Made by a program: the position numbers and the translations under genes. The notes under the pieces were generated by a model, which was not told the origin of the DNA, did no database searches, and saw nothing but the letters and a program-made list of their open reading frames with translations. Source: an uncultured Thermodesulfobacteriota bacterium (lineage in GTDB: Bacteria; Desulfobacterota; GWC2-55-46; JADFVP01). From it: DNA of 64,000 nucleotides. Positions 15,748 through 58,449 of this stretch are shown one piece after another (within the stretch, counting starts at the first letter, position 1; every line of letters begins with the position of its first letter). The stretch lies in contig CAZEBZ010000002.1 in assembly GCA_964510775.1 (NCBI GenBank), positions 8,447-72,446 on the forward strand, in the 5' to 3' direction.

Positions 15748-16416
15748 TTACTTAAGGGCCGATACATAAGATGCAAGGGCCTTCATCTGCGCCTCTGTTG
15801 CCAAACCCTCATATACAGGCATCCTGCTTACAGGGGTAAATGCCCGCTGATTCCTAAGATAGGCGTATACCCACTGCGGGTTCAATCTATCACGTGTGCC
15901 CTCAAGAGAGGGCCCCGATAGCCCGCCGGCGAGAGAGCCGCGCACATTAACGAGATGACAGCCGTAACAGGCGAACTTCTTAATAAAGGAAATCCTTCCC
16001 CTTACATTTACACCGGGACGTATACCCGCCTCAGGGACAAGCCCCTCGGCCTTAAGGCTCATGAGATAAGAGGCTACGGATTTTGCCATACCTGCCTCAA
16101 GGCGGGGGTGGTCGGCGCTATTCTTTTTTTCAAGAGAATTATAGGCCAGCGGCCTTATGGGCAGAGGATTAGCGAGCCAGCGCTCCAAAAAACCCTCTCT
16201 GAACTTGCTTCCCGCGTACCATAAATCAGGGCCTTTCTTAGCGAGTACGGCAGCGCGACTAAGCTTACCAGAAGGCCTCTCTACGCTGTGACAGCTGCCG
16301 CAGCCCTTTGCGGTAAAGGCCTTGCCCCCCATAGACTCTGAAGAACGCGCCGCAGAGGGAGATAAAAAAACGGACAATATGATTATGAGAAAGAAAGAAA
16401 CAGCAGTGGTTTTCAT
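15748..16416 (-). CDS. Diheme c-type cytochrome
   Basis: 222 aa with a signal peptide and two CxxCH motifs (CGSCH and CYGCH). Confidence 0.7.
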   Translation of the reverse strand: MKTTAVSFFLIIILSVFLSPSAARSSESMGGKAFTAKGCGSCHSVERPSGKLSRAAVLAKKGPDLWYAGSKFREGFLERWLANPLPIRPLAYNSLEKKNSADHPRLEAGMAKSVASYLMSLKAEGLVPEAGIRPGVNVRGRISFIKKFACYGCHLVNVRGSLAGGLSGPSLEGTRDRLNPQWVYAYLRNQRAFTPVSRMPVYEGLATEAQMKALASYVSALK

Positions 16417-43809: not shown

Positions 43810-44223
43810 AGAGAAAGACGCCCGAGGGTATCATGTAAGCCGGATCCTGTAATCCCTCTGTAGAGAGAGACGGCGGCCATTCATCTGGGACCTGCGTTGC
43901 CGCAGGCCTCAAGCAACCTACCCGTTCCGCCCGCTCTCACAGAGGAGAGACGAAGGGCGGGCCGCCCTTGAAGCGGAACCTATTCGGTCTTGCACCGGGA
44001 GGGGGTTGCCAAGCCCTGCCAGTCACCTGGCAGGCTGGTGGGCTCTTACCCCGCCTTTTCACCCTTACCCCTTATGTAAAGGGGCGGTATATTTTCTGTG
44101 GCCCTGTCCCTGGGGTCTCCCCCGGTCGCCGTTAGCGACCTCCCTGCTCTGCGGTGTCCGGACTTTCCTCCACCTGCTAATGCAGACAGCGGCCGCCCAA
44201 TACCCTCGGGCGTCTTTCCAGTA
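43810..44223 (-). ncRNA. rnpB: RNase P RNA, bacterial type A (rnpB)
   Basis: The reverse complement contains GGAGGAAAGUCCGGAC (P4 5' strand), AAGGGUGAAAAGGCGGGGUAAGAGCCCACCAG (P10/11-P12 region), GGUGCAAGACCGAAUAGG, and ACAGGAUCCGGCUUACA (P4 3' strand). The P1 pairing GAAAGACGCCCGAGGGUAU/AUACCCUCGGGCGUCUUUC fixes the ends to within about 10 nt. Confidence 0.85.
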
Positions 44224-44948: not shown

Positions 44949-45650
44949 TCAGGGGGCCTCAGTAGCGGCAGGGGTTTGCTCTACATAAAGTATTCTATCG
45001 CAGTGCGGACACCTGATGATTTCTTCTTCGCCCTTGCAGAGTTGCACATAGATCTGAGTGGGCACATGCATATAACAGCCCTGACAGGCCTCCTTTTTAA
45101 GAGGAACAACTGCCAGCCCGCCCCTTCTCTCTCTTATATTCTCATAAAGGCGGTACTTGCCATCATCAAGAGCTGCGCGCAGGGTCTCGCGCTCCGCCTT
45201 CCTGGCCTTTAGGGCCTCTTGCCAGGGGGCGCCTTTTGCCTCAAGCTCACCGCGAAGGGACTCTATCTCAGCATTAATCTCCTCGACCTCAAGCACCCTT
45301 GCTTCCCTCAGCACCCCTTGCTCAGTCTGGCGTACAGTTAGGTCAGATGACTCTTTCTCGGCCTGACGGATTATCTTTCCAGCAGTACTCGTCTCTTTAT
45401 TCAGGGCCTTCAGTTCTTTATTACCGCTAACAGAGCGTATACGCTCCTCATTTTTTCTTATTCTATCATTGGCCTGAGTGATGCGAAGGGCCACCTCACT
45501 AATAGAGGCCCCAAGGGCCTCTATCTCATTATCTATAAGGACAAGACCGCCGTTAATCTGCTCCAGTCTCGCAGTCAGAGTCTCTATCTTTTTTGTATAA
45601 GCACTTGCCTCGTCATCCATGCCCTTTATGACAAGGTCTATCTTCTGCAT
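44949..45650 (-). CDS. C4-type zinc-ribbon coiled-coil protein (COG1579/DUF164 family)
   Basis: The long coiled-coil ends in CQGCYMHVP...CPHCDRILY. The ORF track extends to 45818, but that extension runs through a tRNA gene, so I place the start at the Met of MQKIDLVIKG. Confidence 0.6.
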   Translation of the reverse strand: MQKIDLVIKGMDDEASAYTKKIETLTARLEQINGGLVLIDNEIEALGASISEVALRITQANDRIRKNEERIRSVSGNKELKALNKETSTAGKIIRQAEKESSDLTVRQTEQGVLREARVLEVEEINAEIESLRGELEAKGAPWQEALKARKAERETLRAALDDGKYRLYENIRERRGGLAVVPLKKEACQGCYMHVPTQIYVQLCKGEEEIIRCPHCDRILYVEQTPAATEAP

Positions 45651-45700
45651 ACCTGCAAGTGTTAGTAAGGAGTTTGACAAGGGTATCTCCAGAGAAAAAT

Positions 45701-45776
45701 TGGTGGGCCCACCAGGACTCGAACCTGGGACCGACCGGTTATGAGCCGGTGGCTCTTCCAACTGAGCTATGGGCCC
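45701..45776 (-). tRNA. tRNA with CAU anticodon (elongator Met, or Ile2 if lysidinylated), CCA encoded
   Basis: The reverse complement is GGGCCCATAGCTCAGTTGGAAGAGCCACCGGCTCATAACCGGTCGGTCCCAGGTTCGAGTCCTGGTGGGCCCACCA. It has a 7-bp acceptor stem, a GTTCGAGTC T-loop, and the anticodon loop CTCATAA. Confidence 0.85.
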
Positions 45777-46013
45777 CGCGCAATGGCTGAAACGTAAAAG
45801 ATGCTTACCGCAAAGCACAGAGGCCTCTTTGCGGGAAATACTGCCGAGGGGAAAGGATATTTACCGTCAAAAATTCATTTTATTCAAATACACTCCACCT
45901 TGTCAAGGTCTTTAACCGGAGAGCGCCCTTAAGCAAGTACAATTTAGGGCTAAAAGACATGTACAAGTGAAAATCACCTGAGAGTAGAGCCGTTATAACG
46001 GTGAGGGGGGAAA

Positions 46014-48623: not shown

Positions 48624-48709
48624 GAGAGTATCTTAACACAACTGAACCCCCCGTGCCAAAAGGAGCTGCCGCGGAGGGTTCAATAGATACATCTAAACCT
48701 ATAAAAGTA

Positions 48710-49654
48710 CTAAAAGAGTGTCTTTCTCTTTTTCTTTTTCTTTTTCTGCTTTTTCTTCTTCTCTTCCTCTTCTTTAGCTTTTTTATCGGCCTCGGCCTTG
48801 GCCGCGGCCTTCTCTTTCACAACATCAGCGCCTGTAATCCAGTCCGGTATGGCACGCTCTACGGAGTGACAGCGAAAACAATTTTCAAGAGGAAAGGCCA
48901 CCTTGCCGTGACAAGCGCCGCAGTACTCTCCGTCTATAATCTTCATCATATCCATAGCAGCATTACCGCCCTCTTTCGCCTTAAAGCGCCCCGGGTGACA
49001 GGCCGCGCAGTCAAGTACCTCGGTATGAGACTTATGTGGGAAGAGGACATCAGGCGGGACTGCGGAGAATTTACTGCGGGCATAGGCAGGAAGCACTACG
49101 TCCTTTTTAAGCGCCTTCAGCTGTCCCTTACCGTCAAGAGAGGATTTTGGAGTAATCTTATTCTCATGGAGGGCCTTGACCCAGTCAACCTTGTTGCCAA
49201 AATCACTAGCGGGAAAGCCCCTAAGGGCCTCCTTAATACCGCTATTCTCCACGACCTTCTTACCATAGGAATGGCAGCGATTGCATGTCTTCGTACTAAA
49301 AGCCTCTCTTCCGTTATGACAGGCGCCGCATTTTCCCCCGCTCTCAATATCGCTATGCCTTATATCCGTAAAGCCTGCCTTCCAGGCAAATCCAAGATCC
49401 TTGTGACAGACATTACATGTATAAAACCTCCTGTGCGCCCAGTGTTTAAAGACAACAGGGGCCACACCATCGGCGGCCTTAATATTCTTCTTCATCACAA
49501 CAGAGCCGTACCAGGAAGGCGGTAATACTTTATTGTAACCATCCCCTGTTACGGTGCGGGGCCCTGCCGCTGAGGAAGAGATAAATTGCGGCGCCGCTAT
49601 GACAAATAGAGCAAGAAGAACTATCTCTATGATATGCGTACAAAAACGTTTCAA
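48710..49654 (-). CDS. Hexaheme c-type cytochrome built from c7/c3-like modules, with a poly-lysine C-terminal tail
   Basis: 314 aa with a signal peptide and six CxxCH motifs (CNVCH, CGACH, CNRCH, CAACH, CGACH, CFRCH). The distal His contexts are c3/c7-like (VVFKHWAHRRF, VLFPHKSHTEVL). The C-terminus is KAKEEEEKKKKQKKKKKKRK. Confidence 0.8.
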   Translation of the reverse strand: MKRFCTHIIEIVLLALFVIAAPQFISSSAAGPRTVTGDGYNKVLPPSWYGSVVMKKNIKAADGVAPVVFKHWAHRRFYTCNVCHKDLGFAWKAGFTDIRHSDIESGGKCGACHNGREAFSTKTCNRCHSYGKKVVENSGIKEALRGFPASDFGNKVDWVKALHENKITPKSSLDGKGQLKALKKDVVLPAYARSKFSAVPPDVLFPHKSHTEVLDCAACHPGRFKAKEGGNAAMDMMKIIDGEYCGACHGKVAFPLENCFRCHSVERAIPDWITGADVVKEKAAAKAEADKKAKEEEEKKKKQKKKKKKRKTLF

Positions 49655-49682
49655 TATAAAAAGACCTCCCTGACAAGAATTT

Positions 49683-50072
49683 TTAATAGCCCCTGTGACA
49701 GGCCGAGCACAGACGCAGATAATCTATCCTCAGCATATTTGGGTACTCTGACTTATTATGAGCATCATGGCATGTGTAGCACACAAGCTTACCACTCTTA
49801 TCAAGGGGCATACGCCTGCTTATGTTTATCCTCGGTCTCTTACCTATGGGGTGTTTTGCCACAGGGTGATTGCCGAGCTGCTCCTTATGGCAACGCGTGC
49901 AGAGAGTAACTGTATCTAACTTTAAGGAAGGCATCTCGCTGCCATGACAGTAAGAGCAACTCTCTTTATTCTCCCACTCATGGGGATTGACGCCGTGACC
50001 CGCCGCCAAAGAGACACGCGGCAGGGTAAGCAACGAGAGGAATAAAAAGACTGCAAGAGCGAGACCCGCCAT
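49683..50072 (-). CDS. Small tetraheme c-type cytochrome
   Basis: Four CxxCH motifs (CSYCH, CTRCH, CYTCH, CSACH) in about 130 aa. The start is placed at the internal Met preceding the signal peptide MAGLALAVFLFL; the ORF track starts at 50135. Confidence 0.75.
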   Translation of the reverse strand: MAGLALAVFLFLSLLTLPRVSLAAGHGVNPHEWENKESCSYCHGSEMPSLKLDTVTLCTRCHKEQLGNHPVAKHPIGKRPRINISRRMPLDKSGKLVCYTCHDAHNKSEYPNMLRIDYLRLCSACHRGY

Positions 50073-50214
50073 TATCCACCGCAAATGAGTGCGAGTACTA
50101 CCTCTATTTATCAAGACAGGCGCATAAATGCCCATGACCGTGCCTCCACCCTATCTTTCCATCACAGCGGGCCTTGCTCCGGTGATAATCAAAAAAACTC
50201 ACAGAGAGCCCACT

Positions 50215-52401
50215 CTAATTAGTACAATCAGCAACAGTATTACAGCTGTAGATAGCCGTAACTCCCGTAAGTATATCCGTAAAATTATGCTTACAGACCT
50301 TGTCCGTCAGAGTATTCACTGTTCTAAAGTATAGCTGCGCTCCGGCAGTCGTAGTCGCCGGCACATAGGACTCTATACAGGCCCCGTTCATCATCCTGTA
50401 CCCAAGGGGGCTTGAGCCAACAACAGTGCCCGCCGCCGCGTTGCTGCCATGTATACCCTTCATTACATTATTAACACTGTCATAACCGCCGCCGTGACAG
50501 GACAGGCAGAGATTGCCAAAGTAATTGCTGTCATTACCCGTACCAACGCCTGAGGTATAAAAAGGTGAGGCCGTACCGAGACCATCCACGGGGTGAGGTA
50601 CTCTGGAATAGTTGGCATTAGGCCCGACAAAACCCTCATCGCCATAGACATCGCGGCGGTGGCAGTTATAGCAGAAGTTCTTCAGAGAACCCGCTCCGCT
50701 CTCATTGCTTCTAAGGACCCACTTATTATTTGAGGCATGAGGCCCCTGTGGGTCTGCTGCCGAGTCCGGGCCATGACAATCCGTACACGTCATAGTCGAT
50801 TCATGAGTAACATTGGCAAAACCAGTCCTCGTGCCTGTACCGGGAAAATCAAGATAAGTAAATGTATTAGTAAGACCGAGGCCGTTAATTGGCCAATTGG
50901 GGTTAGCCAAGACAGGCGGACGGTTCTTGCCCTGAATAAATACAGGGTGAAAGCCCTTGTTGTTTACATTAAAGTCATCTGAAATATCCGATTCTTTCAC
51001 AATACTGCCGTTCGCGTTGCCAGAGGGAACAAAAGGCGGCATACTGGAGTAGGCGTAATAGGAATGACACTTCATACACAGGTAGCCCTCAAGGTTATTT
51101 CCGCCGGGCAGAGTTGATGTGAAGTCAACAACCTGATAGGTAAGGGCCGCTCCGGAGAGAGGCCAGACAGAGGGCATTACCCCCCATGAGCCTAACAAAT
51201 TAGGGCCTATGACATCTCCGTCAATACCGCCTATAGTGTGATTACCGGCCTTTGCACCGTGAGGATTATGACAATCGGCGCACTCGGCGTGTCTGTTCAG
51301 ACCAAGGTTAACGGCCGTCTCACGAGCTGGATCGCTTGAGACGGATCTTGAAGGTATATGGGCGCCGCTAACTCCCTTCACATCATGCATTGAGGTCTTA
51401 GTAAAAAGGGCATCTATGTTTTTTGCGGCCACGTTGCCATTATGGCAGTTAAGGCATGTCCACTCCTCATCTACTATTGTATGAGTCACAGGATCCGTAC
51501 CCTTCAAGAGGCTCTTTCCCGCCATGCCTCCATGAGAGCGGTGGCAGGCAAGACAGCTATGCTGCTGCGGTGTATCGTCGGCAAAACCCGCCGCGCCCAT
51601 ATCAAGGTGATAGGGATTCTCACCTGTCTGGTTCCAGAGAGCGATTGAGTCCCTGTGAACTGAGGGATTGGTATCCCAGTATTTTTTAGTATGACAGGCA
51701 GCACAGAGCACGCCGTTCTCAGGGCTCGTTACCATTAAGGCAGGGTATATGGTGCCGTGAGGGTCGTGACAGCTTGTGCATTGCAGCATGTTATTCTTAT
51801 CCAGTTTCACCGCAGCCGGCAGAGCCGATGCGGCCTTAATTTCCACATTGGCAGGTGAAGAGAGTGCGTAATCAAATGAAATGGGATGGTCGTCTCTTAG
51901 ATCCGTCCCTATATAAGCCGTAGAAACGGCAGTAAGTTTACCAGCCGTCACCCCCGGGCCTGTAACAGGCAGGGTAAATGGGCCCGTTACTGATGTGAAG
52001 TTCTTAAGAGAACCAATGGCAATAGTTCCGTCGTGACAGGAGAGGCATAGTTTTGACGAACCCGTGGGCTGGCCCATAGTGGCAACAACAGTATCGCTCT
52101 GATATATATTATAAGTAGCTCCCGAGTCAGCCCTGTTCCAGAGGGGCCCCGATGGGCTGGTATTATGAGGGGCATGACAAAATACACATATCCTTGTAGT
52201 ATTTGCCGTCTTTATCGCAGAGGAAGAGAAAGTGCTGAAGTTGTGTTTTGTCGCGGCAACTGTGGCAAAAACCGGTGTCGCGGCAAAAAACATAACGCCG
52301 GACATCAATAAGCCCAGACAAAAAACCACTGCGTGCGCTGTGCCAGTCCCTCGCAGAAAATTAACAAAAAAACTTCTTTTAATAAACTCGGCGTATCTCA
52401 A
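50215..52401 (-). CDS. Large multiheme c-type cytochrome, 11 CxxCH motifs
   Basis: 728 aa with a signal peptide and 11 CxxCH motifs (CVFCH, CLSCH, CTSCH, CAACH, CLACH, CLNCH, CADCH, CMKCH, CTDCH, CYNCH, CLSCH). Composition is rich in Thr/Ser/Gly/Asn, which suggests surface exposure. Confidence 0.8.
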   Translation of the reverse strand: MRYAEFIKRSFFVNFLRGTGTAHAVVFCLGLLMSGVMFFAATPVFATVAATKHNFSTFSSSAIKTANTTRICVFCHAPHNTSPSGPLWNRADSGATYNIYQSDTVVATMGQPTGSSKLCLSCHDGTIAIGSLKNFTSVTGPFTLPVTGPGVTAGKLTAVSTAYIGTDLRDDHPISFDYALSSPANVEIKAASALPAAVKLDKNNMLQCTSCHDPHGTIYPALMVTSPENGVLCAACHTKKYWDTNPSVHRDSIALWNQTGENPYHLDMGAAGFADDTPQQHSCLACHRSHGGMAGKSLLKGTDPVTHTIVDEEWTCLNCHNGNVAAKNIDALFTKTSMHDVKGVSGAHIPSRSVSSDPARETAVNLGLNRHAECADCHNPHGAKAGNHTIGGIDGDVIGPNLLGSWGVMPSVWPLSGAALTYQVVDFTSTLPGGNNLEGYLCMKCHSYYAYSSMPPFVPSGNANGSIVKESDISDDFNVNNKGFHPVFIQGKNRPPVLANPNWPINGLGLTNTFTYLDFPGTGTRTGFANVTHESTMTCTDCHGPDSAADPQGPHASNNKWVLRSNESGAGSLKNFCYNCHRRDVYGDEGFVGPNANYSRVPHPVDGLGTASPFYTSGVGTGNDSNYFGNLCLSCHGGGYDSVNNVMKGIHGSNAAAGTVVGSSPLGYRMMNGACIESYVPATTTAGAQLYFRTVNTLTDKVCKHNFTDILTGVTAIYSCNTVADCTN

Positions 52402-52559
52402 GAAAAACCTCCCCGCAGATTACATGCCGCTCACCACAAATAATCGCTTTTTCGATTATCTGCCATACAAATAAATAACCGGCTCTTTACTACAAAACCC
52501 CACTCAACAGACTTGGCGCTGCTCTTGGCCAAAGACTCCGGTAATCATCTCTTTGAGAC

Positions 52560-53696
52560 TCATCCGCCGCGCGTATGAATGGGTTCGCTGCCACCGCCTC
52601 CAAGATACTCAAAGACCTCTATCCTTCTATTGTAAGGATCTGCCACAAAAATATTATCAGAGGCGTCTATAAAGACCCCTCCGGGCATCCAGAACATACC
52701 GGGGCCTGCGCCGAGCTTTCCGAAGCTAAGGAGAAAGGCACCCTTGCGGGAAAATATCTGCACAGTATCAAAGATGGCATCGGCCACATATATGTTGCCC
52801 TCGGAATCTACGGCAATACCCTTTGGCCTGCCAAAATCGCCAGTGCCGTCGCCATGCTGACCAAAGCTGCTTAAATATCGGCCATTCATGTCGAATATCT
52901 GAACCCTGTAGTTCATAGAGTCCGTTACATAGAGGTCTCCTCTGGCATCAACAAAGACATCAGTAGGGTAATTAAACTGACCATCTTTGTCTCCACGACC
53001 GCCAAACGTCTTAATAAGCCTACCCTGAAGGTCGTAGGCTATTAGTTCATGCTCGCCAGTATCCACGACATAGAGGCGTTTTCTCGCGGCGTCTACGGCT
53101 AAACCCGTAGGGCGCGTCCCGCCATCAATGGAACGAATGAGCTTGCCTCGCTGATTAAAGACATAGACCTTGCGTGCGCTGGAATCACTGACATATATAT
53201 TATCGGCGTTGTCTGTGGCCACGCCCATAGGAGATATAAGAGGGTCTTTGCCTGCCCTATCGATAAATTCATACTTTTTTTTCTTCTTATCGTATATATG
53301 AACCCTCTTCAGGACAGTATCGGCAACGATAATCCTGCCGGAGACGTCTACGGCGATACCATAGGGCTTCACCATATCTCTCTTGGCGGCGCCAACAAGG
53401 ACATCGACGATTTTTTTGAAAAGACCTCTCTTGATTCCAAGATCCTCGGGCCTTGCAAGGGATATATCAAAGGCAATACGCGCAGGCGCCGGAGGTGAGG
53501 GCCATATAAGGGGCTTATGCTTAAAGTCTTTTGATTGCTGAGCTGATATGTCCGGAGTACCGCATCCAACTGAGGTAAGGAGCAGGGTAAGCACAAGGAG
53601 ACACAGACATGACAAAGAGGCCGCTTCGCGTACAGAACGCACCGAAGCATCACGCCGTTGCATGAAAAAATCATAAAAAGCAGAATATATTCTCAT
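52560..53696 (-). CDS. NHL-repeat six-bladed beta-propeller protein, probable lipoprotein
   Basis: 378 aa with six NHL repeats (IYVSDSSARKVYVFNQRG, LYVVDTGEHELIAYDLQG, LYVTDSMNYRVQIFDMNG, IYVADAIFDTVQIFSRKG, IFVADPYNRRIEVFEY and others) and an N-terminal signal with Cys (LTSVGC). Confidence 0.8.
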   Translation of the reverse strand: MRIYSAFYDFFMQRRDASVRSVREAASLSCLCLLVLTLLLTSVGCGTPDISAQQSKDFKHKPLIWPSPPAPARIAFDISLARPEDLGIKRGLFKKIVDVLVGAAKRDMVKPYGIAVDVSGRIIVADTVLKRVHIYDKKKKKYEFIDRAGKDPLISPMGVATDNADNIYVSDSSARKVYVFNQRGKLIRSIDGGTRPTGLAVDAARKRLYVVDTGEHELIAYDLQGRLIKTFGGRGDKDGQFNYPTDVFVDARGDLYVTDSMNYRVQIFDMNGRYLSSFGQHGDGTGDFGRPKGIAVDSEGNIYVADAIFDTVQIFSRKGAFLLSFGKLGAGPGMFWMPGGVFIDASDNIFVADPYNRRIEVFEYLGGGGSEPIHTRGG

Positions 53697-53717
53697 AACT
53701 TCACCAGAGCCCCGCGC

Positions 53718-54356
53718 TTATTTTCTGTGGCAGTACTGGCAGATATCCGCCCCCTCAGCCCTGAGACGAGTCTCCTGATCCGCGCCCCACTCCGCCCTGC
53801 CGTAAAGAAGACCCCTCTCGTGAGAATTATGGCATGTCCCACAAAATATCTTACCCGTAGCGGGATCAAGAGGAAGGAGCAGCGGAAGCTCCTTCTTTAT
53901 AAGCCTCATATTCTTGTATATCAACGCCGGGGGTTTAGCAAGATGACTAGGTGCCACAAAACCGCTCATCGCCGGGCCAACGCCCTCTGAGCCGGGGTGC
54001 TTTTTTATTAAATGACAACTATAACAATTTTTATTAATATCCTCGGAAAATCTAAGTTTCATATTTACATCAGATTTAAGATTCTGAGTATCAGGCATAA
54101 CCTTGTGACAGATAAGACACTTTGACCATAAAATCTCACCCTCGTCATTTATCTGCTCATGAGGATTAATAAGAGACTTTCTCGCCGCAGTTACCTTATA
54201 AGAGAGCGGTGGAGGAGCGTCCTTATCCGCCGCTTCCGCTTTTGCGGCTTTCTTTGCCGCAAAGGCATCACCGGAATTGAGCATAATAATCAGCCCGAGG
54301 ACTATTAGGGTCTGCATTATTCCTCTGTATAAAACTTCTCGCATGAAATAACCCAA
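53718..54356 (-). CDS. Tetraheme c-type cytochrome
   Basis: 212 aa with a signal peptide and four CxxCH motifs (CLICH, CYSCH, CGTCH, CQYCH). Confidence 0.75.
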   Translation of the reverse strand: MGYFMREVLYRGIMQTLIVLGLIIMLNSGDAFAAKKAAKAEAADKDAPPPLSYKVTAARKSLINPHEQINDEGEILWSKCLICHKVMPDTQNLKSDVNMKLRFSEDINKNCYSCHLIKKHPGSEGVGPAMSGFVAPSHLAKPPALIYKNMRLIKKELPLLLPLDPATGKIFCGTCHNSHERGLLYGRAEWGADQETRLRAEGADICQYCHRK

Positions 54357-54437
54357 CCTTTAGGGCGTCCGGCCAGATGCCGGAGAGCCGTACAGAGTTT
54401 ATTCCTTACACAACAAAGATTAAACAACCATTAGAAG

Positions 54438-55589
54438 CTAGCGCCCAAAGGCATAGACATATCCATCCTTGGAGGCGGCAAAGAGCCTCTCACCGGAGAT
54501 GGCCGGAGAGCTGTGGACACCTCCGCCCGTAGCATAACTCCAGCTTATCTCGCCAAGAATAATGTCAATAGCATAGATACGACCGTCCTCGGCGCCAACA
54601 TATATAAAACCATTGGAGGTAACAACAGGCGTGGAGTTAACAGGGGCCGGAAGCTTGTAATCTGCGAGCCGTCTGCCGCGCCTCATACCATAGGCCCTTA
54701 TATGACCATCCTTAAAGGCAAGGTAAATCTTGCCTCCAGCCACAACAGGAGAAGCATATACCATGGAGCTGGCGATGTTTTTTCTAAAAACAATCTTACC
54801 CGTCTCAGCATCAACACCAAAGAGCTTACGCTCTCCAGAGACAAAATAAACCTTGCCGTTCTTTAAGACAGGACTCGTGTATATAGACGAGTGGTTAATC
54901 ACCGCCCAGTTTCTGCCGCCGCTCTTGCCGTCCTGCGAATAAAGAACACCGTTCTTGCCGGCGAAGAGAACAGCGTCTTTATAGTACAGCGGTGATGCGT
55001 ATATATCGCTGTACTTCTCGTAATCAAGCGTCCTCATACGCCAGATCCGCTTTCCCGTCTTGGCGTTAAGGGCATAAAAACGCAGGTCTGATGCTCCAAA
55101 AAAGACCATGCCGCCGCCTACTACCGGTGAGGTAAGGATACTACCGTCTGCGGTGAAGCTCCACATAAGCCTGCCGTCCGAGGCATCAAGACAATAGAAC
55201 TTACCGTCCTTTGAACCAAAGAACACATGACCGTCTTTAACGGCGGGCGTAGAGAGTATCTCGCCGCCAGTGGAAAAGCTCCAGAGCTTTGCGCCCGTAG
55301 TCTCATCAAGGGCATATAGTTTTTTGTCGTATGAACCGATAAATACCTTGCCGCCCCATACAACGGGAGATGAATAAACAGGCCCATCAGTAGCGAACTT
55401 CCATAAAACCTTCAGAGGGGGCCGAGGAGCCATAGGGGCAAAAGAGGAATGATTCCTGTCCTTCATGAACATGGGCCAATCTGCGTGGCCGCTGCCCGGA
55501 AGAAAAAGTGCGGAGAGTGAACAAATAATTACAGCGGTAAGTATTTTAATAAATTCAGAGCCGTATTTTCTTCCGTAGACTTGTCTCAT
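54438..55589 (-). CDS. PQQ-repeat (BamB-like) beta-propeller protein
   Basis: 383 aa with a signal peptide and about eight repeats of the PQQ-propeller pattern (SSPVVxxGxVFxGSxDGxLYALDAxTGKxxW). Confidence 0.8.
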   Translation of the reverse strand: MRQVYGRKYGSEFIKILTAVIICSLSALFLPGSGHADWPMFMKDRNHSSFAPMAPRPPLKVLWKFATDGPVYSSPVVWGGKVFIGSYDKKLYALDETTGAKLWSFSTGGEILSTPAVKDGHVFFGSKDGKFYCLDASDGRLMWSFTADGSILTSPVVGGGMVFFGASDLRFYALNAKTGKRIWRMRTLDYEKYSDIYASPLYYKDAVLFAGKNGVLYSQDGKSGGRNWAVINHSSIYTSPVLKNGKVYFVSGERKLFGVDAETGKIVFRKNIASSMVYASPVVAGGKIYLAFKDGHIRAYGMRRGRRLADYKLPAPVNSTPVVTSNGFIYVGAEDGRIYAIDIILGEISWSYATGGGVHSSPAISGERLFAASKDGYVYAFGR

Positions 55590-55598
55590 ATACTATAA

Positions 55599-56207
55599 TC
55601 AAACCTTGAATGTTAAGAGCTTTTTCAGCGCAGAATCTGTTTTTGAACTCATACTCTCAAGTCTTTCAATAACCTCGGTCTTTACTGACATTCTTCCCGA
55701 AGCGCTCCTGTAGCACACAAGCCCCCTCGCAAGACCATTTATCTCCGCAACCTCTGCCTGAACCGCGGTAAAGCGCTCGTCAAATAGCTCCATAGAATCA
55801 TTAAAGGCGCCACGAGGCGACTCAAGGTGATGAGGCAGCCCTGCAATCCTAACAGTTAAGTCACCACCCTGTCCGGCATTCTTCATGGCCTCTATATAAA
55901 AAGCGAGCCCTCTCTCAAGACTCCTCGTCAGCACATATCCGAAGACAAGACCAGCGATAATTATAAAGGGCACACTAAAGGCCGAGAGTTTCCATATAAC
56001 AGGCCAGATTATATCCGAGGTAGAACTTGCCTGCAAGTGAATTTTATAGAGCCTCTCATCAAGCCTGCCCTCAATAAGAATATAGGCGGCTAAGAGGTCT
56101 AAAAAAAGCCCGCAGCTTACGAGTACGGCGAGACCAATTACAAAACGGCCCTGAAGGGATCTGTTTATAAAAAACCGCCTTCTCCTCAACCACGGATACT
56201 TACCCAT
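55599..56207 (-). CDS. Small membrane protein: 2 TM helices + HAMP-like linker + C-terminal coiled coil, no output domain
   Basis: About 202 aa. The first TM is FVIGLAVLVSCGLFLDLLAAYILI and the second is FSVPFIIIAGLVFGYVL, followed by a HAMP-like segment ending AFNDSMELFDERF. It is a paralog in architecture of the protein at 57131-57745. Confidence 0.5.
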   Translation of the reverse strand: MGKYPWLRRRRFFINRSLQGRFVIGLAVLVSCGLFLDLLAAYILIEGRLDERLYKIHLQASSTSDIIWPVIWKLSAFSVPFIIIAGLVFGYVLTRSLERGLAFYIEAMKNAGQGGDLTVRIAGLPHHLESPRGAFNDSMELFDERFTAVQAEVAEINGLARGLVCYRSASGRMSVKTEVIERLESMSSKTDSALKKLLTFKV

Positions 56208-56261
56208 CTTACACCTCATAAAGTTAACATAAAATCAATTAAAATTCAACTACGTGCCCGC

Positions 56262-57077
56262 TTACTTTACATGGCAGGCAAGACAGAGATTACTCCCGTA
56301 ATTATCCATAACGAGCTGCGCGTGCGTACCTGAGTAGGGGCTGTGACAGGTGCCGCAGCCCACCATGCCGCCAAAAAACTTTATCTGCGGCGGTAGCGAC
56401 GCCATGTCCCTGTAGGCGCCCCTGTATTTTCTCTTTGCCTCGGCGTAGGATACACCTACGGGGTGCGTCAGACCTGTAATATTACTGTGGCGACTCCTGA
56501 AAATATCCTGATTTTCCACCATCGCGGAGCTGCCTACTATGGCATCATGACAGCTCAGACACTTTATGCTCATCTCGTCCAGACGGGCGCCGCCCTGAGC
56601 CTGAGGGGAATAAGATGCCTTAAGAGGCCTTGGAGCGCCGCCTATATGGGCATTTACACCGGAGAGAGTGTGTATCATATTATCATCAAGGCCGCTGTGG
56701 CATAATACGCAAAACCCCTGACCTCCGGCGCTTGTCCTCAGGTGACTGGGGCCAAACCCCTGATGATGTATCTCGTGACAGGTGAGGCATGTAACCATAC
56801 CTCTCCAATCCAAGGGAAAATAAGAAGGCACCTTCATCGCGGGCGTAATGTCAACGGGATGAGTAAGCCCCTCCTCCTGGCGGTGACACTCCATACATAA
56901 CCCTGTTATATCCTTTCTTAATGTAGGTTTTTTATCTCCTGCGCCGGGAATTTTAATATGACAATCCAGACATCTCCCTGTAAAATCATGATAAGCGCCT
57001 GCCGTCCTACCGGGAACTTTAGCCGAGAATACCAGCGCACCAGCGATTAAAACAAGCAATAAGAGTACCTTCTTCAC
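56262..57077 (-). CDS. Heptaheme c-type cytochrome
   Basis: 271 aa. The GTG start is preceded by an AGAGG Shine-Dalgarno sequence. It has a signal peptide and seven CxxCH motifs (CLDCH, CMECH, CLTCH, CVLCH, CLSCH, CGTCH, CLACH), with a GLTHPV distal-ligand motif repeated twice. Confidence 0.8.
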   Translation of the reverse strand: MKKVLLLLVLIAGALVFSAKVPGRTAGAYHDFTGRCLDCHIKIPGAGDKKPTLRKDITGLCMECHRQEEGLTHPVDITPAMKVPSYFPLDWRGMVTCLTCHEIHHQGFGPSHLRTSAGGQGFCVLCHSGLDDNMIHTLSGVNAHIGGAPRPLKASYSPQAQGGARLDEMSIKCLSCHDAIVGSSAMVENQDIFRSRHSNITGLTHPVGVSYAEAKRKYRGAYRDMASLPPQIKFFGGMVGCGTCHSPYSGTHAQLVMDNYGSNLCLACHVK

Positions 57078-57114
57078 CTCGACAAAACCTCTGAATTGTA
57101 TTAGCCCCGCACAT

Positions 57115-57123
57115 GGGGGGGGG
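57115..57123. repeat. Homopolymeric G tract (G9; C9 on the coding strand) 38 nt upstream of the heptaheme cytochrome start
   Basis: acatGGGGGGGGGcactcg, inside the 53-nt gap between the HAMP-protein gene and the heptaheme cytochrome gene. Confidence 0.7.
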
Positions 57124-57130
57124 CACTCGT

Positions 57131-57745
57131 TTATTGGGCGGTCTTTATTGCTGAGATTCTTGAACTCAGCTCTTTTACGAGCCCCTCAAGCTCCCTTATA
57201 CCCTCGGCAGCTTCCCCCTCAAGACACTCACCGCTCCCCTCAAGCTCCTCAGCCTCTCGCAGAAGGGCACAGAGACTGCCGCTCTGTTTTTTTACGGCCA
57301 TTAAAGACTCCCTGGACTCTACGACAAGCCCTGTGAGTCTCTCTGTCATTTTATTCTTTTCTCTTGCCAGAAGAGCCAGTTGGTCACTCTCACGAAAAGA
57401 CGTCTCTACCGTAAGGTCTCCTGAGGCAAGAAGCTCAAGGTCGCGTGTAAGCCTGAAGATCGGGCCAGCCATCTTATGAGAGAAAAATATCGAGGTCAGG
57501 GCGATAAAGACTACGGTAACAACCATAGTGGCTATGGAATAGACTGAGGCCAATACGAGAGAGAAGATATTTATCCTCAGTGAGTATATGGCATACATGG
57601 CCTCGCCATAGGAATGGCCAAGGTCACGGCCCGTAACAAGATAAAGACCGATAGTGAGGGCCGAGAAACCGGCCGCCGTAAGGAGACAGAACTTTATCAG
57701 GAATTTAAGCTGAAAACTGCCCTCAAGCAGTCTAACACTCCTCAT
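57131..57745 (-). CDS. Small membrane protein: 2 TM helices + HAMP-like linker + C-terminal coiled coil, no output domain
   Basis: 204 aa. The TMs are at about residues 15-37 and 60-88, followed by HKMAGPIFRLTRDLELLASGDLTVETSFRESDQLALLAREKNKMTERL (HAMP pattern) and a coiled coil. A GGAGG Shine-Dalgarno lies 8 nt upstream of the ATG. Confidence 0.5.
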   Translation of the reverse strand: MRSVRLLEGSFQLKFLIKFCLLTAAGFSALTIGLYLVTGRDLGHSYGEAMYAIYSLRINIFSLVLASVYSIATMVVTVVFIALTSIFFSHKMAGPIFRLTRDLELLASGDLTVETSFRESDQLALLAREKNKMTERLTGLVVESRESLMAVKKQSGSLCALLREAEELEGSGECLEGEAAEGIRELEGLVKELSSRISAIKTAQ

Positions 57746-57840
57746 AGATTTCCCTCCTTCAAAGAGATAGCACTAATCCCAAAAACGTAAAAAGTCCACT
57801 AATCCCTACTATCACCGATGCCCGCGCTATGGTTTTTACC

Positions 57841-57869
57841 TTGACACTCTGGTGCGCGATTACTATAGT
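57841..57869 (+). promoter_or_regulatory. Near-consensus sigma70-type promoter (TTGACA-17 bp-TATAGT) on the plus strand
   Basis: ttgaca ctctggtgcgcgattac tatagt. It reads toward the G-rich repeat block and tRNA-Cys. It was identified from the sequence only. Confidence 0.4.
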
Positions 57870-57985
57870 GTCTATGTCTTTACTATCGGCGTCTCAGGCG
57901 AAAAGTTTAAGAAAAAGGGCGCTGCAAGAGGTATAATAAGGACGCGACACTTAAGAGACGCACTAAGGGCCTCATCTTGCTAACA

Positions 57986-58142
57986 GGGTAGAGGGCATAA
58001 GGGGTAGAGAGCAGAAGGGGCAGAGGGCATAAGGGGTAGAGGGCATAAGGGGTAAGAGGCAGGAGAGGGGCAGAGGGCAGGAGAGGGGCAAGGGGCAGGA
58101 GAGGGGCAGAGGGCAGCAGGGGTACAGGGGACAGGAGGGGTA
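57986..58142 (+). repeat. G-rich tandem repeat of 18-nt units (AGGGCATAAGGGGTAGAG x3, then GGGCAGGAGAGGGGCAGA x3-4)
   Basis: The plus strand carries GGG/GGGG runs every 6-9 nt over about 160 nt. The spurious minus-strand ORF across it translates as repeated PLPLSCPLPLSC, which reflects the periodicity. Confidence 0.8.
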
Positions 58143-58213
58143 AAGAAAGGGCGGGGTCATAAAACCCGCCGTCTCATTGAACCTTTTTAAGATTACACAT
58201 ACATTTACACTCT

Positions 58214-58289
58214 GGCGGCGTACCCAAGTGGCTAAGGGAGCAGTCTGCAACACTGCCATCCAGCGGTTCGAATCCGCTCGCCGCCTCCA
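58214..58289 (+). tRNA. tRNA-Cys (GCA), CCA encoded
   Basis: GGCGGCGTACCCAAGTGGCTAAGGGAGCAGTCTGCAACACTGCCATCCAGCGGTTCGAATCCGCTCGCCGCCTCCA. It has a 7-bp acceptor stem, the anticodon loop CTGCAAC with anticodon GCA, and a GGTTCGAAT T-loop. Confidence 0.9.
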
Positions 58290-58312
58290 TTTTTTCTTAT
58301 ACTCTCATAAAT

Positions 58313-58340
58313 AAAAAAGGGCCCTTAAGGGCCCTTTTTT
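58313..58340. terminator. Bidirectional intrinsic terminator (A6-GGGCCC-TTAA-GGGCCC-T6)
   Basis: A perfect 6-bp GC stem with a 4-nt loop is flanked by an A-tract and a T-tract. It lies 23 nt downstream of tRNA-Cys (plus strand) and about 110 nt downstream of the minus-strand M20 peptidase gene. Confidence 0.6.
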
Positions 58341-58449
58341 ATTATTCTTTATTCTTAATAATTAATTTAACATCCCTTCCGGAGCCCACACCTCTCACTC
58401 TCTCATCTGCCGCAGCGGCGTGGTAACAGCATAGGCTCCTGCAAAAAAA

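What the first reader, a model, noticed from the sequence alone, without database searches (positions are those of the whole stretch)
48710..57745. Nine-gene multiheme cytochrome cluster (32 CxxCH) with NHL/PQQ beta-propellers, HAMP-only membrane proteins, and no porin
Nine tightly spaced, co-directional genes (gaps 9-158 nt) run in transcription order as follows. HAMP membrane protein (57131-57745), heptaheme cytochrome (56262-57077), second HAMP membrane protein (55599-56219), PQQ propeller (54438-55589), tetraheme cytochrome (53718-54356), NHL propeller lipoprotein (52560-53696), 11-heme 728-aa cytochrome (50215-52401), small tetraheme (49683-50135), hexaheme c7-like cytochrome with poly-Lys tail (48710-49654). 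Every product has a secretion signal or TM helices. Known extracellular electron-transfer conduits pair periplasmic and surface cytochromes with a porin-like beta-barrel (Geobacter OmaB-OmbB-OmcB, Shewanella MtrCAB). No barrel candidate is present here; two different beta-propeller proteins are interleaved with the cytochromes instead. Two paralogous sensor-less HAMP modules are also included. I have not seen this gene combination described. It may be a non-porin redox conduit or a surface electron-transfer complex scaffolded by propellers, possibly with built-in signal transduction.
Basis: partly seen in the sequence, partly recalled or inferred. Interest (0 to 1): 0.85.

Follow-up and report, generated by a model that had tools for sequence, protein, structure and literature searches.

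The report
Multiheme cytochrome cluster lacking its pore
This is a real, conserved nine-gene operon for a chain of 32-heme electron-carrying proteins, related to the gene clusters that build bacterial "cytochrome nanowires", but it lacks the outer-membrane pore and the wire subunit those clusters have, so it is an interesting variant of a known system, not a new kind.

Summary
There are nine co-directional minus-strand genes (57745→48710) with gaps of 9-158 nt. They carry 32 CxxCH motifs (7+4+11+4+6), two beta-propellers and two small 2TM-HAMP paralogs. No barrel is found anywhere in the 64 kb. Order and heme counts are invariant in at least 10 complete (15 counting contig-truncated) uncultured Thermodesulfobacteriota MAG loci.

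Here the stand-alone OmcE subunit, the barrel and any quinol oxidase are missing. The HAMP pair and a BamB-like propeller are lineage-specific additions.

Best reading: a barrel-less derivative of omcE/Uet-type electron-transfer clusters that wires the periplasm up to the outer membrane. Whether electrons actually leave the cell is unresolved.

Verdict: new variant of a known kind, moderate interest.

The parts
57746..58213 (-). Leader and presumed promoter region of the operon. It is bounded upstream by a divergently read tRNA-Cys (58214-58289, + strand) and a palindromic terminator (58310-58343). It contains a pyrimidine-rich tandem repeat at 57986-58142.
   Evidence: No sigma-70 consensus was found on the minus strand and no Rfam riboswitch. 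The promoter is inferred, not shown.
57131..57745 (-). g1: a 204-aa inner-membrane protein with two TM helices, a short periplasmic helix, a HAMP domain and a cytoplasmic helical hairpin. It has no output domain.
   Evidence: Hydropathy. HAMP-region hits to histidine kinases and MCPs. PF00672 in 7 of 11 orthologs. AF2 pLDDT 85.5 with helices 9-39, 46-57, 60-107, 124-167 and 172-198. The motif S89-H90-x-x-A-G-P is invariant or nearly so in 68 homologs.
56262..57077 (-). g2: a secreted heptaheme cytochrome (271 aa) that is weakly related to OmcE and to DmsE/MtrA-type cytochromes.
   Evidence: Seven CxxCH. Paired_CXXCH and decaheme-family partial hits below cut-off. Profile against PDB gives OmcE 7TFS at E 2.7e-7, partial. 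Eight invariant non-CxxCH His for 7 hemes.
55599..56219 (-). g3: a 206-aa divergent paralog of g1, with two TM helices, a degenerate HAMP and a coiled coil.
   Evidence: hhalign of A1 against A2 gives 98.3% probability and E 2.5e-14 over 188 columns. HAMP is found in only 1 of 11 orthologs. Y58, H61, T67 and P73 are invariant in the loop and TM2 region.
54438..55589 (-). g4: a periplasmic BamB-like (PQQ_2) beta-propeller of 383 aa. It has a signal peptide but no lipobox, and starts 9 nt after g3.
   Evidence: PF13360 E 2e-60. The BamB equivalog scores 167 bits against a cut-off of 285, and PQQ dehydrogenase scores 101 against 480. The signal peptide ending A|DWPMF is conserved and there is no lipobox.
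53718..54356 (-). g5: a secreted tetraheme cytochrome, 212 aa from the TTG start, or 199 aa if it starts 13 codons downstream (Met14).
   Evidence: Four CxxCH and four invariant distal His. No OmcE match by sequence or by profile. An alternative gene call exists on an identical contig.
52560..53696 (-). g6: an NHL six-bladed beta-propeller lipoprotein. It is a homolog of the propeller lipoproteins of omcE-type clusters.
   Evidence: NHL E 2e-29. The lipobox is conserved in orthologs. It is 35% identical over its full length to the G. sulfurreducens omcE-cluster propeller (E 2e-58). It is 40-46% identical to the propellers that precede g7-like genes in other phyla.
51685..52317 (-). g7 N-domain (residues 29-239): an OmcE-type tetraheme domain.
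   Evidence: phmmer against 9YUQ gives E 2e-22 and against 7TFS E 2e-20. The family profile gives 7TFS E 5.6e-42 and 9YUQ E 3.7e-36 over the whole subunit. Four CxxCH and the four distal His (H53, H79, H172, H215) are invariant.
50215..51684 (-). g7 C-terminal part (residues 240-728, with stop codon): a seven-heme wire that is MtrA-like in fold, followed by a small beta-rich domain with four conserved Cys.
49683..50135 (-). g8: a small secreted tetraheme cytochrome of 150 aa.
   Evidence: Four CxxCH, Paired_CXXCH_1 E 1.5e-8 and four invariant distal His.
48710..49654 (-). g9: a secreted hexaheme made of two c7-type triheme domains (GSU1996 family), with a Lys-rich tail (about 48713-48832) ending in ...K(T/F)LF.
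   Evidence: TIGR04257 at 119 bits against a cut-off of 40. PDB 3OV0 at E 5e-35. The tail is conserved in the 9 closest orthologs and lost in more distant ones.
48645..48667 (-). A weak terminator-like hairpin 43 nt after the g9 stop codon.
   Evidence: It has 8 pairs and a poor T-tail, so it is only suggestive.

Best explanation
The cluster is a lineage-specific, barrel-less offshoot of the omcE/Uet-type gene clusters, in which NHL propellers accompany multiheme cytochromes used for extracellular electron transfer. Five Sec-exported cytochromes carrying 32 hemes form an electron-transfer chain inside the cell envelope. The GSU1996-like c7 hexaheme g9, the small tetrahemes g5 and g8, and the heptaheme g2 act as periplasmic carriers or wires. 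The 11-heme g7 is the distal element. It joins an OmcE-type tetraheme domain to an MtrA-like heme wire, and it is held at the outer membrane by its constant partner, the NHL lipoprotein g6. The BamB-like propeller g4 is a second protein-protein scaffold. The two 2TM-HAMP paralogs g1 and g3 each precede the gene for a periplasmic partner (g2 and g4). They probably tether or regulate the assembly at the inner membrane. The cluster on its own does not encode a way through the outer membrane or a quinol oxidase. It is therefore most likely a module that wires the periplasm up to the outer membrane and depends on unlinked genes for electron entry and, if electrons leave the cell at all, for exit. 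Shown here: gene content, conservation, homologies, fold similarity and export signals. Inferred: the order of electron flow, g6-g7 docking, the role of the HAMP proteins and the final acceptor or donor.
Against: There is no experimental localisation or expression data for any of these proteins. No inner-membrane quinol dehydrogenase is present, whereas the related loci L015, L026 and L028 carry a cytochrome b, so the electron entry point is unknown. The barrel could be encoded elsewhere, because whole genomes of the lineage could not be searched. An MtrA-like fold and an OmcE-like domain are both hallmarks of proteins that do cross or sit outside the outer membrane, which argues that g7 may not stay periplasmic. 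The AF2 model of the OmcE-like domain is poor (pLDDT below 50). The assignment of the 579-668-aa proteins as barrels rests on position, composition, the C-terminal aromatic residue and the preprint's description, not on a structure.
Confidence: 0.55

Rival explanations
1. It is a conventional porin-cytochrome conduit whose barrel, and perhaps a stand-alone OmcE-like subunit, is encoded elsewhere in the genome. On this view g7 threads that barrel by its MtrA-like part and exposes its OmcE-like domain outside, as its homologs plausibly do in omcE-type clusters.
For: The MtrA-like fold of g7. In four loci from other lineages the closest non-lineage g7 homologs, up to 40% identical, sit next to a putative barrel and an OmcE-like tetraheme. 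The barrels of different lineages are too divergent for BLAST to link, so an unlinked one would be easy to miss.
Against: No barrel lies within about 10 kb on either side in any of 15 syntenic loci spanning 52-80% g7 identity. Stable unlinking over that much divergence is unusual for porin-cytochrome systems. The OmcE subunit is missing too.
Confidence: 0.22
2. One reading: a pore-free trans-outer-membrane or surface complex, in which the two beta-propellers scaffold the cytochromes in place of a barrel and the HAMP proteins provide signalling.
For: The barrel is absent while two propellers are retained in all relatives. A similar proposal exists for D. ferrophilus, where cluster cytochromes were recovered in outer-membrane fractions.
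Against: Soluble or lipid-anchored propellers are not known to span a membrane. In the homologous omcE/osc systems, propellers accompany a barrel and do not replace it. Deleting the D. ferrophilus cluster cytochromes gave no Fe(III) oxide phenotype, and their localisation is disputed. g4 has no lipid anchor. The HAMP proteins have no output domain.
Confidence: 0.1
3. g7, or g2 or g5, is itself a filament-forming cytochrome nanowire subunit that polymerises as OmcE does.
For: An OmcE-type domain with all ligand residues conserved. A weak OmcS-like segment. Weak OmcE similarity in g2.
Against: The g7 family has 12 invariant non-CxxCH His for 11 hemes, which is 2n+1 and not the 2n of a self-polymerising OmcE-type subunit. 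The OmcE domain is covalently continued by a 490-residue extension. There is no barrel, which the literature links to filament secretion or anchoring. g5 has no OmcE similarity.
Confidence: 0.08

Closest known systems
omcE cytochrome-nanowire gene cluster of Desulfuromonadia (G. sulfurreducens locus L025; D. soudanensis WTL; bioRxiv 10.1101/2025.10.22.684050) and its counterparts in other phyla (L015, L016, L018, L029)
   Same: A homologous NHL propeller lipoprotein (g6, 35-46% identity). OmcE-type tetraheme fold (g7 N-domain). Additional multiheme cytochromes. A c7-type periplasmic cytochrome nearby. In the non-Geobacter versions, an 11/12-heme g7 homolog directly after the second NHL gene.
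   Different: There is no stand-alone OmcE subunit, no large barrel, no second NHL lipoprotein (a BamB-like propeller is present instead) and no adjacent ResB/CcsA or Ccm genes. Two 2TM-HAMP proteins, a small tetraheme and a heptaheme are added.
uetABCDEFGHIJ cluster of 'Ca. Tenderia electrophaga' and Gallionella (bioRxiv 10.1101/2022.05.06.490989; PMC10734462)
   Same: The same parts list: an undecaheme 'doubled CXXCH/cytochrome c3 family' protein preceded by NHL propeller gene(s), c7-type triheme domains and a tetraheme cytochrome.
   Different: Uet also has the barrel UetC, the PPIase UetB and the cupredoxin UetF, and it is followed by ccsAB and bat genes. None of these is present here. Direct homology of g7 to UetJ was not tested, because no Uet sequence was available.
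Desulfovibrio ferrophilus IS5 DFE_0448-0451 and DFE_0461-0465 (PMC5815863; PMC9769857)
   Same: Multiheme cytochromes interleaved with NHL beta-propeller genes, with no recognisable porin. A propeller-stabilised outer-membrane cytochrome complex was proposed.
   Different: Different numbers of genes and hemes, and no HAMP proteins are reported. Sequence homology was not tested here. Genetic tests in that organism gave no Fe(III) oxide phenotype.
MtrCAB / MtoAB porin-cytochrome complexes (PDB 6R2Q)
   Different: There is no MtrB-like barrel and no MtrC-like surface decaheme. g7 scores far below the DmsE/MtrA family cut-off (49 bits against 192) and carries an extra OmcE-type domain.
omcS companion (osc) cluster of G. 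sulfurreducens (Shen et al. 2025, as summarised in PMC13194489)
   Same: A nanowire cytochrome cluster in which accessory proteins (OscE, OscF, OscG, OscH) are proposed to secrete and fold the filament.
   Different: There is no OmcS homolog beyond a weak 80-residue segment in g7.
GSU1996 dodecaheme 'nanowire' cytochrome (PDB 3OV0)
   Same: g9 is built from the same c7-type triheme domains (E 5e-35).
   Different: It has two domains instead of four, plus a Lys-rich C-terminal tail.

Membership tests
omcE-type nanowire gene cluster | A stand-alone OmcE-like tetraheme subunit of about 215-260 aa | tested here: not met
   OmcE homology exists only as residues 29-239 of the 728-aa g7. g5 and g8 do not match OmcE significantly.
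omcE-type nanowire gene cluster | A large outer-membrane beta-barrel gene in the cluster | tested here: not met
   There is no heme-free candidate ORF in the cluster. The other large ORFs examined in the window are housekeeping or signalling genes. tblastn with the L015, L016 and L018 proteins and the Geobacter 752-aa protein finds nothing in the window; the L015/L016/L018 proteins also find nothing in L001-L014.
omcE-type nanowire gene cluster | Beta-propeller lipoprotein(s) | tested here: met
   g6 has NHL repeats and a conserved lipobox, and it is 35% identical over its full length to the Geobacter cluster propeller. The second propeller, g4, is BamB-type and has no lipobox.
OmcE protein family (g7 N-domain) | Four CxxCH motifs plus four conserved distal histidines in register with OmcE | tested here: met
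   The alignments to 7TFS and 9YUQ cover the whole subunit. H53, H79, H172 and H215 are invariant in 74 homologs.
OmcE protein family (g7 N-domain) | Polymerisation through inter-subunit His-heme coordination | not testable with these tools
   This needs heme-aware modelling or cryo-EM. The 2n+1 histidine count is only a hint against homopolymerisation.
MtrA/DmsE decaheme family | Score above the family cut-off (TIGR03508) | tested here: not met
Porin-cytochrome conduit (MtrCAB, OmaB-OmbB-OmcB) | A porin-like barrel encoded with the periplasmic and surface cytochromes | tested here: not met
HAMP domain (PF00672), g1 | Profile match and a helix-connector-helix immediately after TM2 with the conserved Pro | tested here: met
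   The window sequence alone gives no Pfam hit. However, 7 of 11 orthologs hit PF00672 (best E 1.3e-6). The HAMP regions of histidine kinases and MCPs align to residues 36-160. AGP is invariant and the AF2 model shows helix 60-107, a connector and helix 124-167.
HAMP domain (PF00672), g3 | Profile match | tested here: inconclusive
   Only 1 of 11 orthologs hits (E 0.011). It is homologous to g1 over its full length.
PQQ-dependent dehydrogenase, g4 | Score above the family cut-off, and a length of about 550-600 aa | tested here: not met
   TIGR03075 scores 101 bits against 480, and g4 is 383 aa. It matches the BamB-like PQQ_2 propeller instead.
c7-type triheme domain / GSU1996 family, g9 | TIGR04257 above its cut-off, in two copies | tested here: met
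   119 bits against a cut-off of 40, in two stretches. 3OV0 at E 5e-35.
Uet cluster | Barrel UetC, PPIase UetB and cupredoxin UetF together with an undecaheme, NHL proteins and c7 proteins | tested here: not met
   The undecaheme, NHL and c7 elements are present. No barrel, PPIase or cupredoxin domain was found in any of the nine products. Homology of g7 to UetJ was not tested.

The most novel reading that the evidence does not exclude
The nine genes form a self-sufficient, pore-free envelope-spanning conduit. On this reading, dimers of the two HAMP paralogs form the inner-membrane entry or redox-sensing element, possibly binding a cofactor through their invariant membrane-edge histidines (g1 H90, g3 H61). 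The two propellers would hold the OmcE::MtrA-type 11-heme wire in or across the outer membrane without any barrel.
Probability: 0.07. Interest if true: 0.85.

Novelty: new variant of a known kind. Interest (0 to 1): 0.5.

Why it matters
How cytochrome nanowires and related outer-surface cytochromes are secreted, anchored and supplied with electrons is an openly acknowledged gap (bioRxiv 10.1101/2025.10.22.684050). Two things here bear on that gap.

First, the g7 family joins an OmcE-type domain to an MtrA-like heme wire. In other phyla it sits directly beside the putative barrel, a propeller lipoprotein and the OmcE-like subunit. That makes it a concrete candidate for the missing base or adaptor that would connect the periplasm, through the barrel, to an OmcE-type filament.

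Second, this uncultured Thermodesulfobacteriota lineage keeps the propeller and g7 but has lost the barrel and the filament subunit, and it has gained two HAMP-only membrane proteins. It is a natural dissection of the system. It could show what the propeller-cytochrome pair does on its own.

If the cluster does move electrons out of the cell, it would be a barrel-independent route. If it does not, it warns against scoring 'multiheme cytochrome + propeller' clusters in metagenomes as extracellular electron-transfer capacity.

Tried and rejected
- A riboswitch or other structured RNA in the ~470-nt leader was looked for (recalling GEMM-I control of Geobacter electron-transfer genes, from memory). 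Rfam finds only the tRNA-Cys and hairpin-driven noise.
- The sigma-70 scan found no convincing minus-strand promoter upstream of g1.
- Distant stand-alone HAMP relatives of g1 (Omnitrophota, an unnamed MAG, Elusimicrobiota) were checked for cytochrome linkage. They sit near pseudopilin, BatA/MoxR or glycosyltransferase genes, so they give no functional clue.
- A crude alternating-hydrophobicity score did not separate the putative barrels from controls. I did not rely on it.
- Pfam gives nothing for the putative barrels.
- g5 was tested as a hidden OmcE-type subunit and rejected at sequence and profile level.
- g4 as a PQQ enzyme or as the housekeeping BamB was rejected on scores and on the lack of a lipobox.
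- The primary osc-cluster paper (Shen et al. 2025) is not in the library, so that comparison is second-hand.
- A nitrite or hydroxylamine reductase-type explanation was rejected. There is no NrfA or HAO similarity beyond weak heme-motif hits.
Full report
**1. Observation**

The nine minus-strand ORFs are present exactly as described. Gaps between them are 53, 42, 9, 81, 21, 158, 79 and 28 nt. The five cytochromes carry 7, 4, 11, 4 and 6 CxxCH motifs, 32 in all, with no variant motifs.

Pfam and NCBIfam confirm the main domain calls:
- g4 is a BamB-like PQQ_2 propeller.
- g6 is an NHL propeller.
- g9 has two c7 triheme domains.

A hydropathy scan shows one N-terminal hydrophobic segment in seven products and two TM segments in g1 and g3. 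g6 carries a lipobox that is conserved in its orthologs. g4 has a cleavable signal but no lipobox.

The upstream M20 peptidase gene ends in a strong palindromic terminator (58310-58343). A tRNA-Cys on the opposite strand follows at 58214-58289. A ~470-nt leader containing a pyrimidine-rich tandem repeat then precedes g1. This layout fits a separate transcription unit, but co-transcription itself is not shown.

**2. Conservation**

A scan of one genome per species found 20 related loci. In 14 MAGs labelled Thermodesulfobacteriota or Deltaproteobacteria, all nine genes recur in the same order wherever the contig allows. g7 identity in these loci ranges from 80% down to 52%. The same CCA-adding enzyme gene usually follows the cluster. 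A further locus of the 'GWC2_55_46' type is identical in layout. Heme counts are invariant.

No relative has a barrel within about 10 kb. Four relatives have hemE/hemH/hemY-type genes divergently adjacent instead.

**3. No barrel in the window**

All other large ORFs that were scanned in the 64 kb are housekeeping or signalling genes: RecJ, HD-GYP, GGDEF, SecDF, Tgt, QueA, SpoIID, RNase G, two radical SAM proteins, FtsZ, MraW and the CCA enzyme; the unscanned ORFs at about 24-39 kb are assumed, not tested, to be dcw (mur/fts) genes.

**4. What g7 is**

The 728-aa cytochrome has thousands of homologs.

- Residues 29-239 (hemes 1-4) align end to end with the two solved OmcE nanowire subunits. 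With the single sequence, 9YUQ from D. soudanensis gives E 2e-22 and 7TFS from G. sulfurreducens gives E 2e-20. With the family profile these become 4e-36 and 6e-42.
- The four distal histidines of OmcE are invariant in 74 homologs.
- The rest of the protein is confidently modelled by AF2 (pLDDT mostly 85-95 for residues 180-728).
- The family has 12 invariant non-CxxCH histidines for 11 hemes.
- It also has a small C-terminal beta-rich domain with four conserved cysteines.

g7 is therefore a fusion of an OmcE-type domain and an MtrA-like heme wire.

**5. The known system it belongs with**

A 2025 preprint defines the minimal omcE cluster as two multiheme cytochromes, two beta-propeller lipoproteins, OmcE and a large beta-barrel 'putatively functioning as a secretion or anchor'. 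I fetched a real G. sulfurreducens locus, L025. Its order is ResB-CcsB, a 9-heme cytochrome, an 8-heme cytochrome, an NHL lipoprotein, OmcE, a 752-aa heme-free protein ending in KKFF, and then glycosyltransferases.

Comparison with the window:
- g6 is 35% identical over its full length to that NHL lipoprotein (E 2e-58).
- The g7 N-domain matches OmcE (E 5e-24).
- The 752-aa protein has no counterpart in the window.

Four loci from other lineages share a fuller order. These are L015 (Desulfobacteraceae), L016 (Chitinophagales), L018 (Ignavibacteriae) and L029. Their order is NHL lipoprotein, OmcE-like tetraheme (217-249 aa), a 579-668-aa heme-free protein, a second NHL gene, and then an 11/12-heme g7 homolog that is 32-40% identical over about 550-620 residues. 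L016 and L018 also have an 8-heme cytochrome in front.

So g6→g7 corresponds to the 'second propeller → large cytochrome' pair of these clusters. The window cluster lacks precisely the OmcE subunit and the putative barrel that lie between the two propellers elsewhere. Other variants exist. L026 and L028 (Pseudomonadota) combine NHL and g7-like genes with a membrane cytochrome b, a 24-heme protein and ResB/CcsA. L017 (Sulfurospirillum) has NHL and g7-like genes followed by CcsA/ResB-type genes.

**6. The other parts**

- g9 is a two-domain GSU1996-type c7 cytochrome (3OV0, E 5e-35). Its Lys-rich tail ending in ...K(T/F)LF is conserved only among the closest orthologs.
- g2 is weakly related to OmcE and to DmsE/MtrA-type cytochromes, and has eight invariant distal-type His for seven hemes.
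- g5 and g8 are small tetrahemes with no informative relatives.
- g4 is a BamB-like scaffold propeller, not a quinoprotein.
- g1 is a 2TM-HAMP protein with a helical hairpin and no output domain.
- g3 is a degenerate paralog of g1.

About 68 tight g1 orthologs all come from this lineage. More distant stand-alone HAMP proteins in other phyla are not linked to cytochromes. The repeated pattern 'HAMP protein, then a periplasmic protein' (g1-g2 and g3-g4, the latter 9 nt apart) suggests that each HAMP protein is paired with the product of the next gene. That is an inference.

**7. Mechanism**

Most likely (about 0.55), this is an envelope-internal heme network derived from omcE/Uet-type clusters. 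The periplasmic carriers g9, g8, g5 and g2 would feed the 11-heme g7, which the outer-membrane lipoprotein g6 holds at the outer membrane. g4 would act as a further scaffold, and g1 and g3 as inner-membrane tethers or regulators. The cluster encodes neither a quinol oxidase nor an outer-membrane pore, so it must rely on unlinked partners at both ends.

Rivals:
- The barrel is simply encoded elsewhere (0.22).
- g7, g2 or g5 forms a filament itself (0.08).

The D. ferrophilus precedent for a barrel-less NHL-cytochrome complex is equivocal. Localisation of its cytochromes is disputed and deletions gave no Fe(III) oxide phenotype.

**8. Novelty**

The combination of cytochromes with NHL propellers is well documented. 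New here are:
- the specific barrel-less nine-gene architecture, conserved across an uncultured lineage;
- the two HAMP-only paralogs and the BamB-type propeller as members of the cluster;
- the recognition that the large cytochrome next to the propeller is an OmcE::MtrA-type fusion.

The preprint states that no OmcE-like protein with more hemes is encoded in the (Desulfuromonadia) OmcE operons. In other phyla such a protein is present next to the barrel. This makes the g7 family a testable candidate for the filament base or adaptor.

Verdict: new variant of a known kind, interest about 0.5.

Noticed in passing
window 57986-58142: A tandem repeat of period ~16-18 with about 9 copies lies in the operon leader. 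It is pyrimidine-rich on the coding (minus) strand and has G-runs on the plus strand (GGGTAGAGGGCAGAAG). It also creates the spurious ORF 57972-58259. Its function is unknown. It might form G-quadruplex or i-motif structures, or act as a spacer between the tRNA and operon promoters.
   Followed up: partly
window 58214-58289 (+) and 58310-58343: A tRNA-Cys(GCA) is read divergently from the cytochrome operon. It is followed by a perfect 15-bp palindromic terminator shared with the convergent M20 peptidase gene. A near-consensus sigma-70 promoter on the plus strand (57841-57869, 11/12) points towards the tRNA.
   Followed up: partly
window 43819-44208 (-) and 45701-45776 (-): RNase P RNA (class A, 308 bits) and a tRNA-Met are present. 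The tRNA-Met overlaps the 5' end of ORF 44949-45818, so the true start of that zinc-ribbon/coiled-coil protein must lie further downstream.
   Followed up: no
L015:2966-10313, L016:2055-8587, L018:5354-11956, L029:4994-11962: In omcE-type clusters outside Desulfuromonadia, the large 11/12-heme cytochrome after the second NHL gene starts with a full OmcE-homologous domain (E 4e-15 to 8e-27 against G. sulfurreducens OmcE for the L015, L016 and L018 proteins). It is a candidate base, adaptor or terminator for OmcE-type filaments, and it appears not to have been pointed out.
   Followed up: partly
L027:1221-4728, and L009, L010, L012 upstream of g1: In more distant relatives the nine-gene cluster lies back to back with heme-biosynthesis genes (URO-D, ferrochelatase and a protoporphyrinogen-oxidase-like gene). 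In L011 it lies next to what look like cytochrome oxidase subunits (inferred from the N-terminal sequences only).
   Followed up: no
window 48713-48832 (g9 residues ~275-314): The Lys-rich tail of the c7 hexaheme ends in a conserved ...(K/R)(K/T)(T/F)LF in the nine closest orthologs, and is replaced by shorter charged tails in more distant ones. It may be a membrane- or polyanion-binding anchor.
   Followed up: partly
L022:7412-9153, L024:5840-7079: Small stand-alone HAMP proteins distantly related to g1 occur beside other uncharacterised proteins of about 200 aa (whose relatedness to g1 was not checked) in Omnitrophota and Elusimicrobiota MAGs, in two of the three loci examined near N_methyl (pseudopilin-like) genes. 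The S-H-x-x-A-G-P junction motif is invariant across all 68 aligned family members.
   Followed up: partly
window 15748-16416 (-): A 222-aa protein with a C-terminal class I (monoheme) cytochrome c domain lies between the RNase G gene and a SpoIID-like gene, unlinked to the cluster.
   Followed up: no
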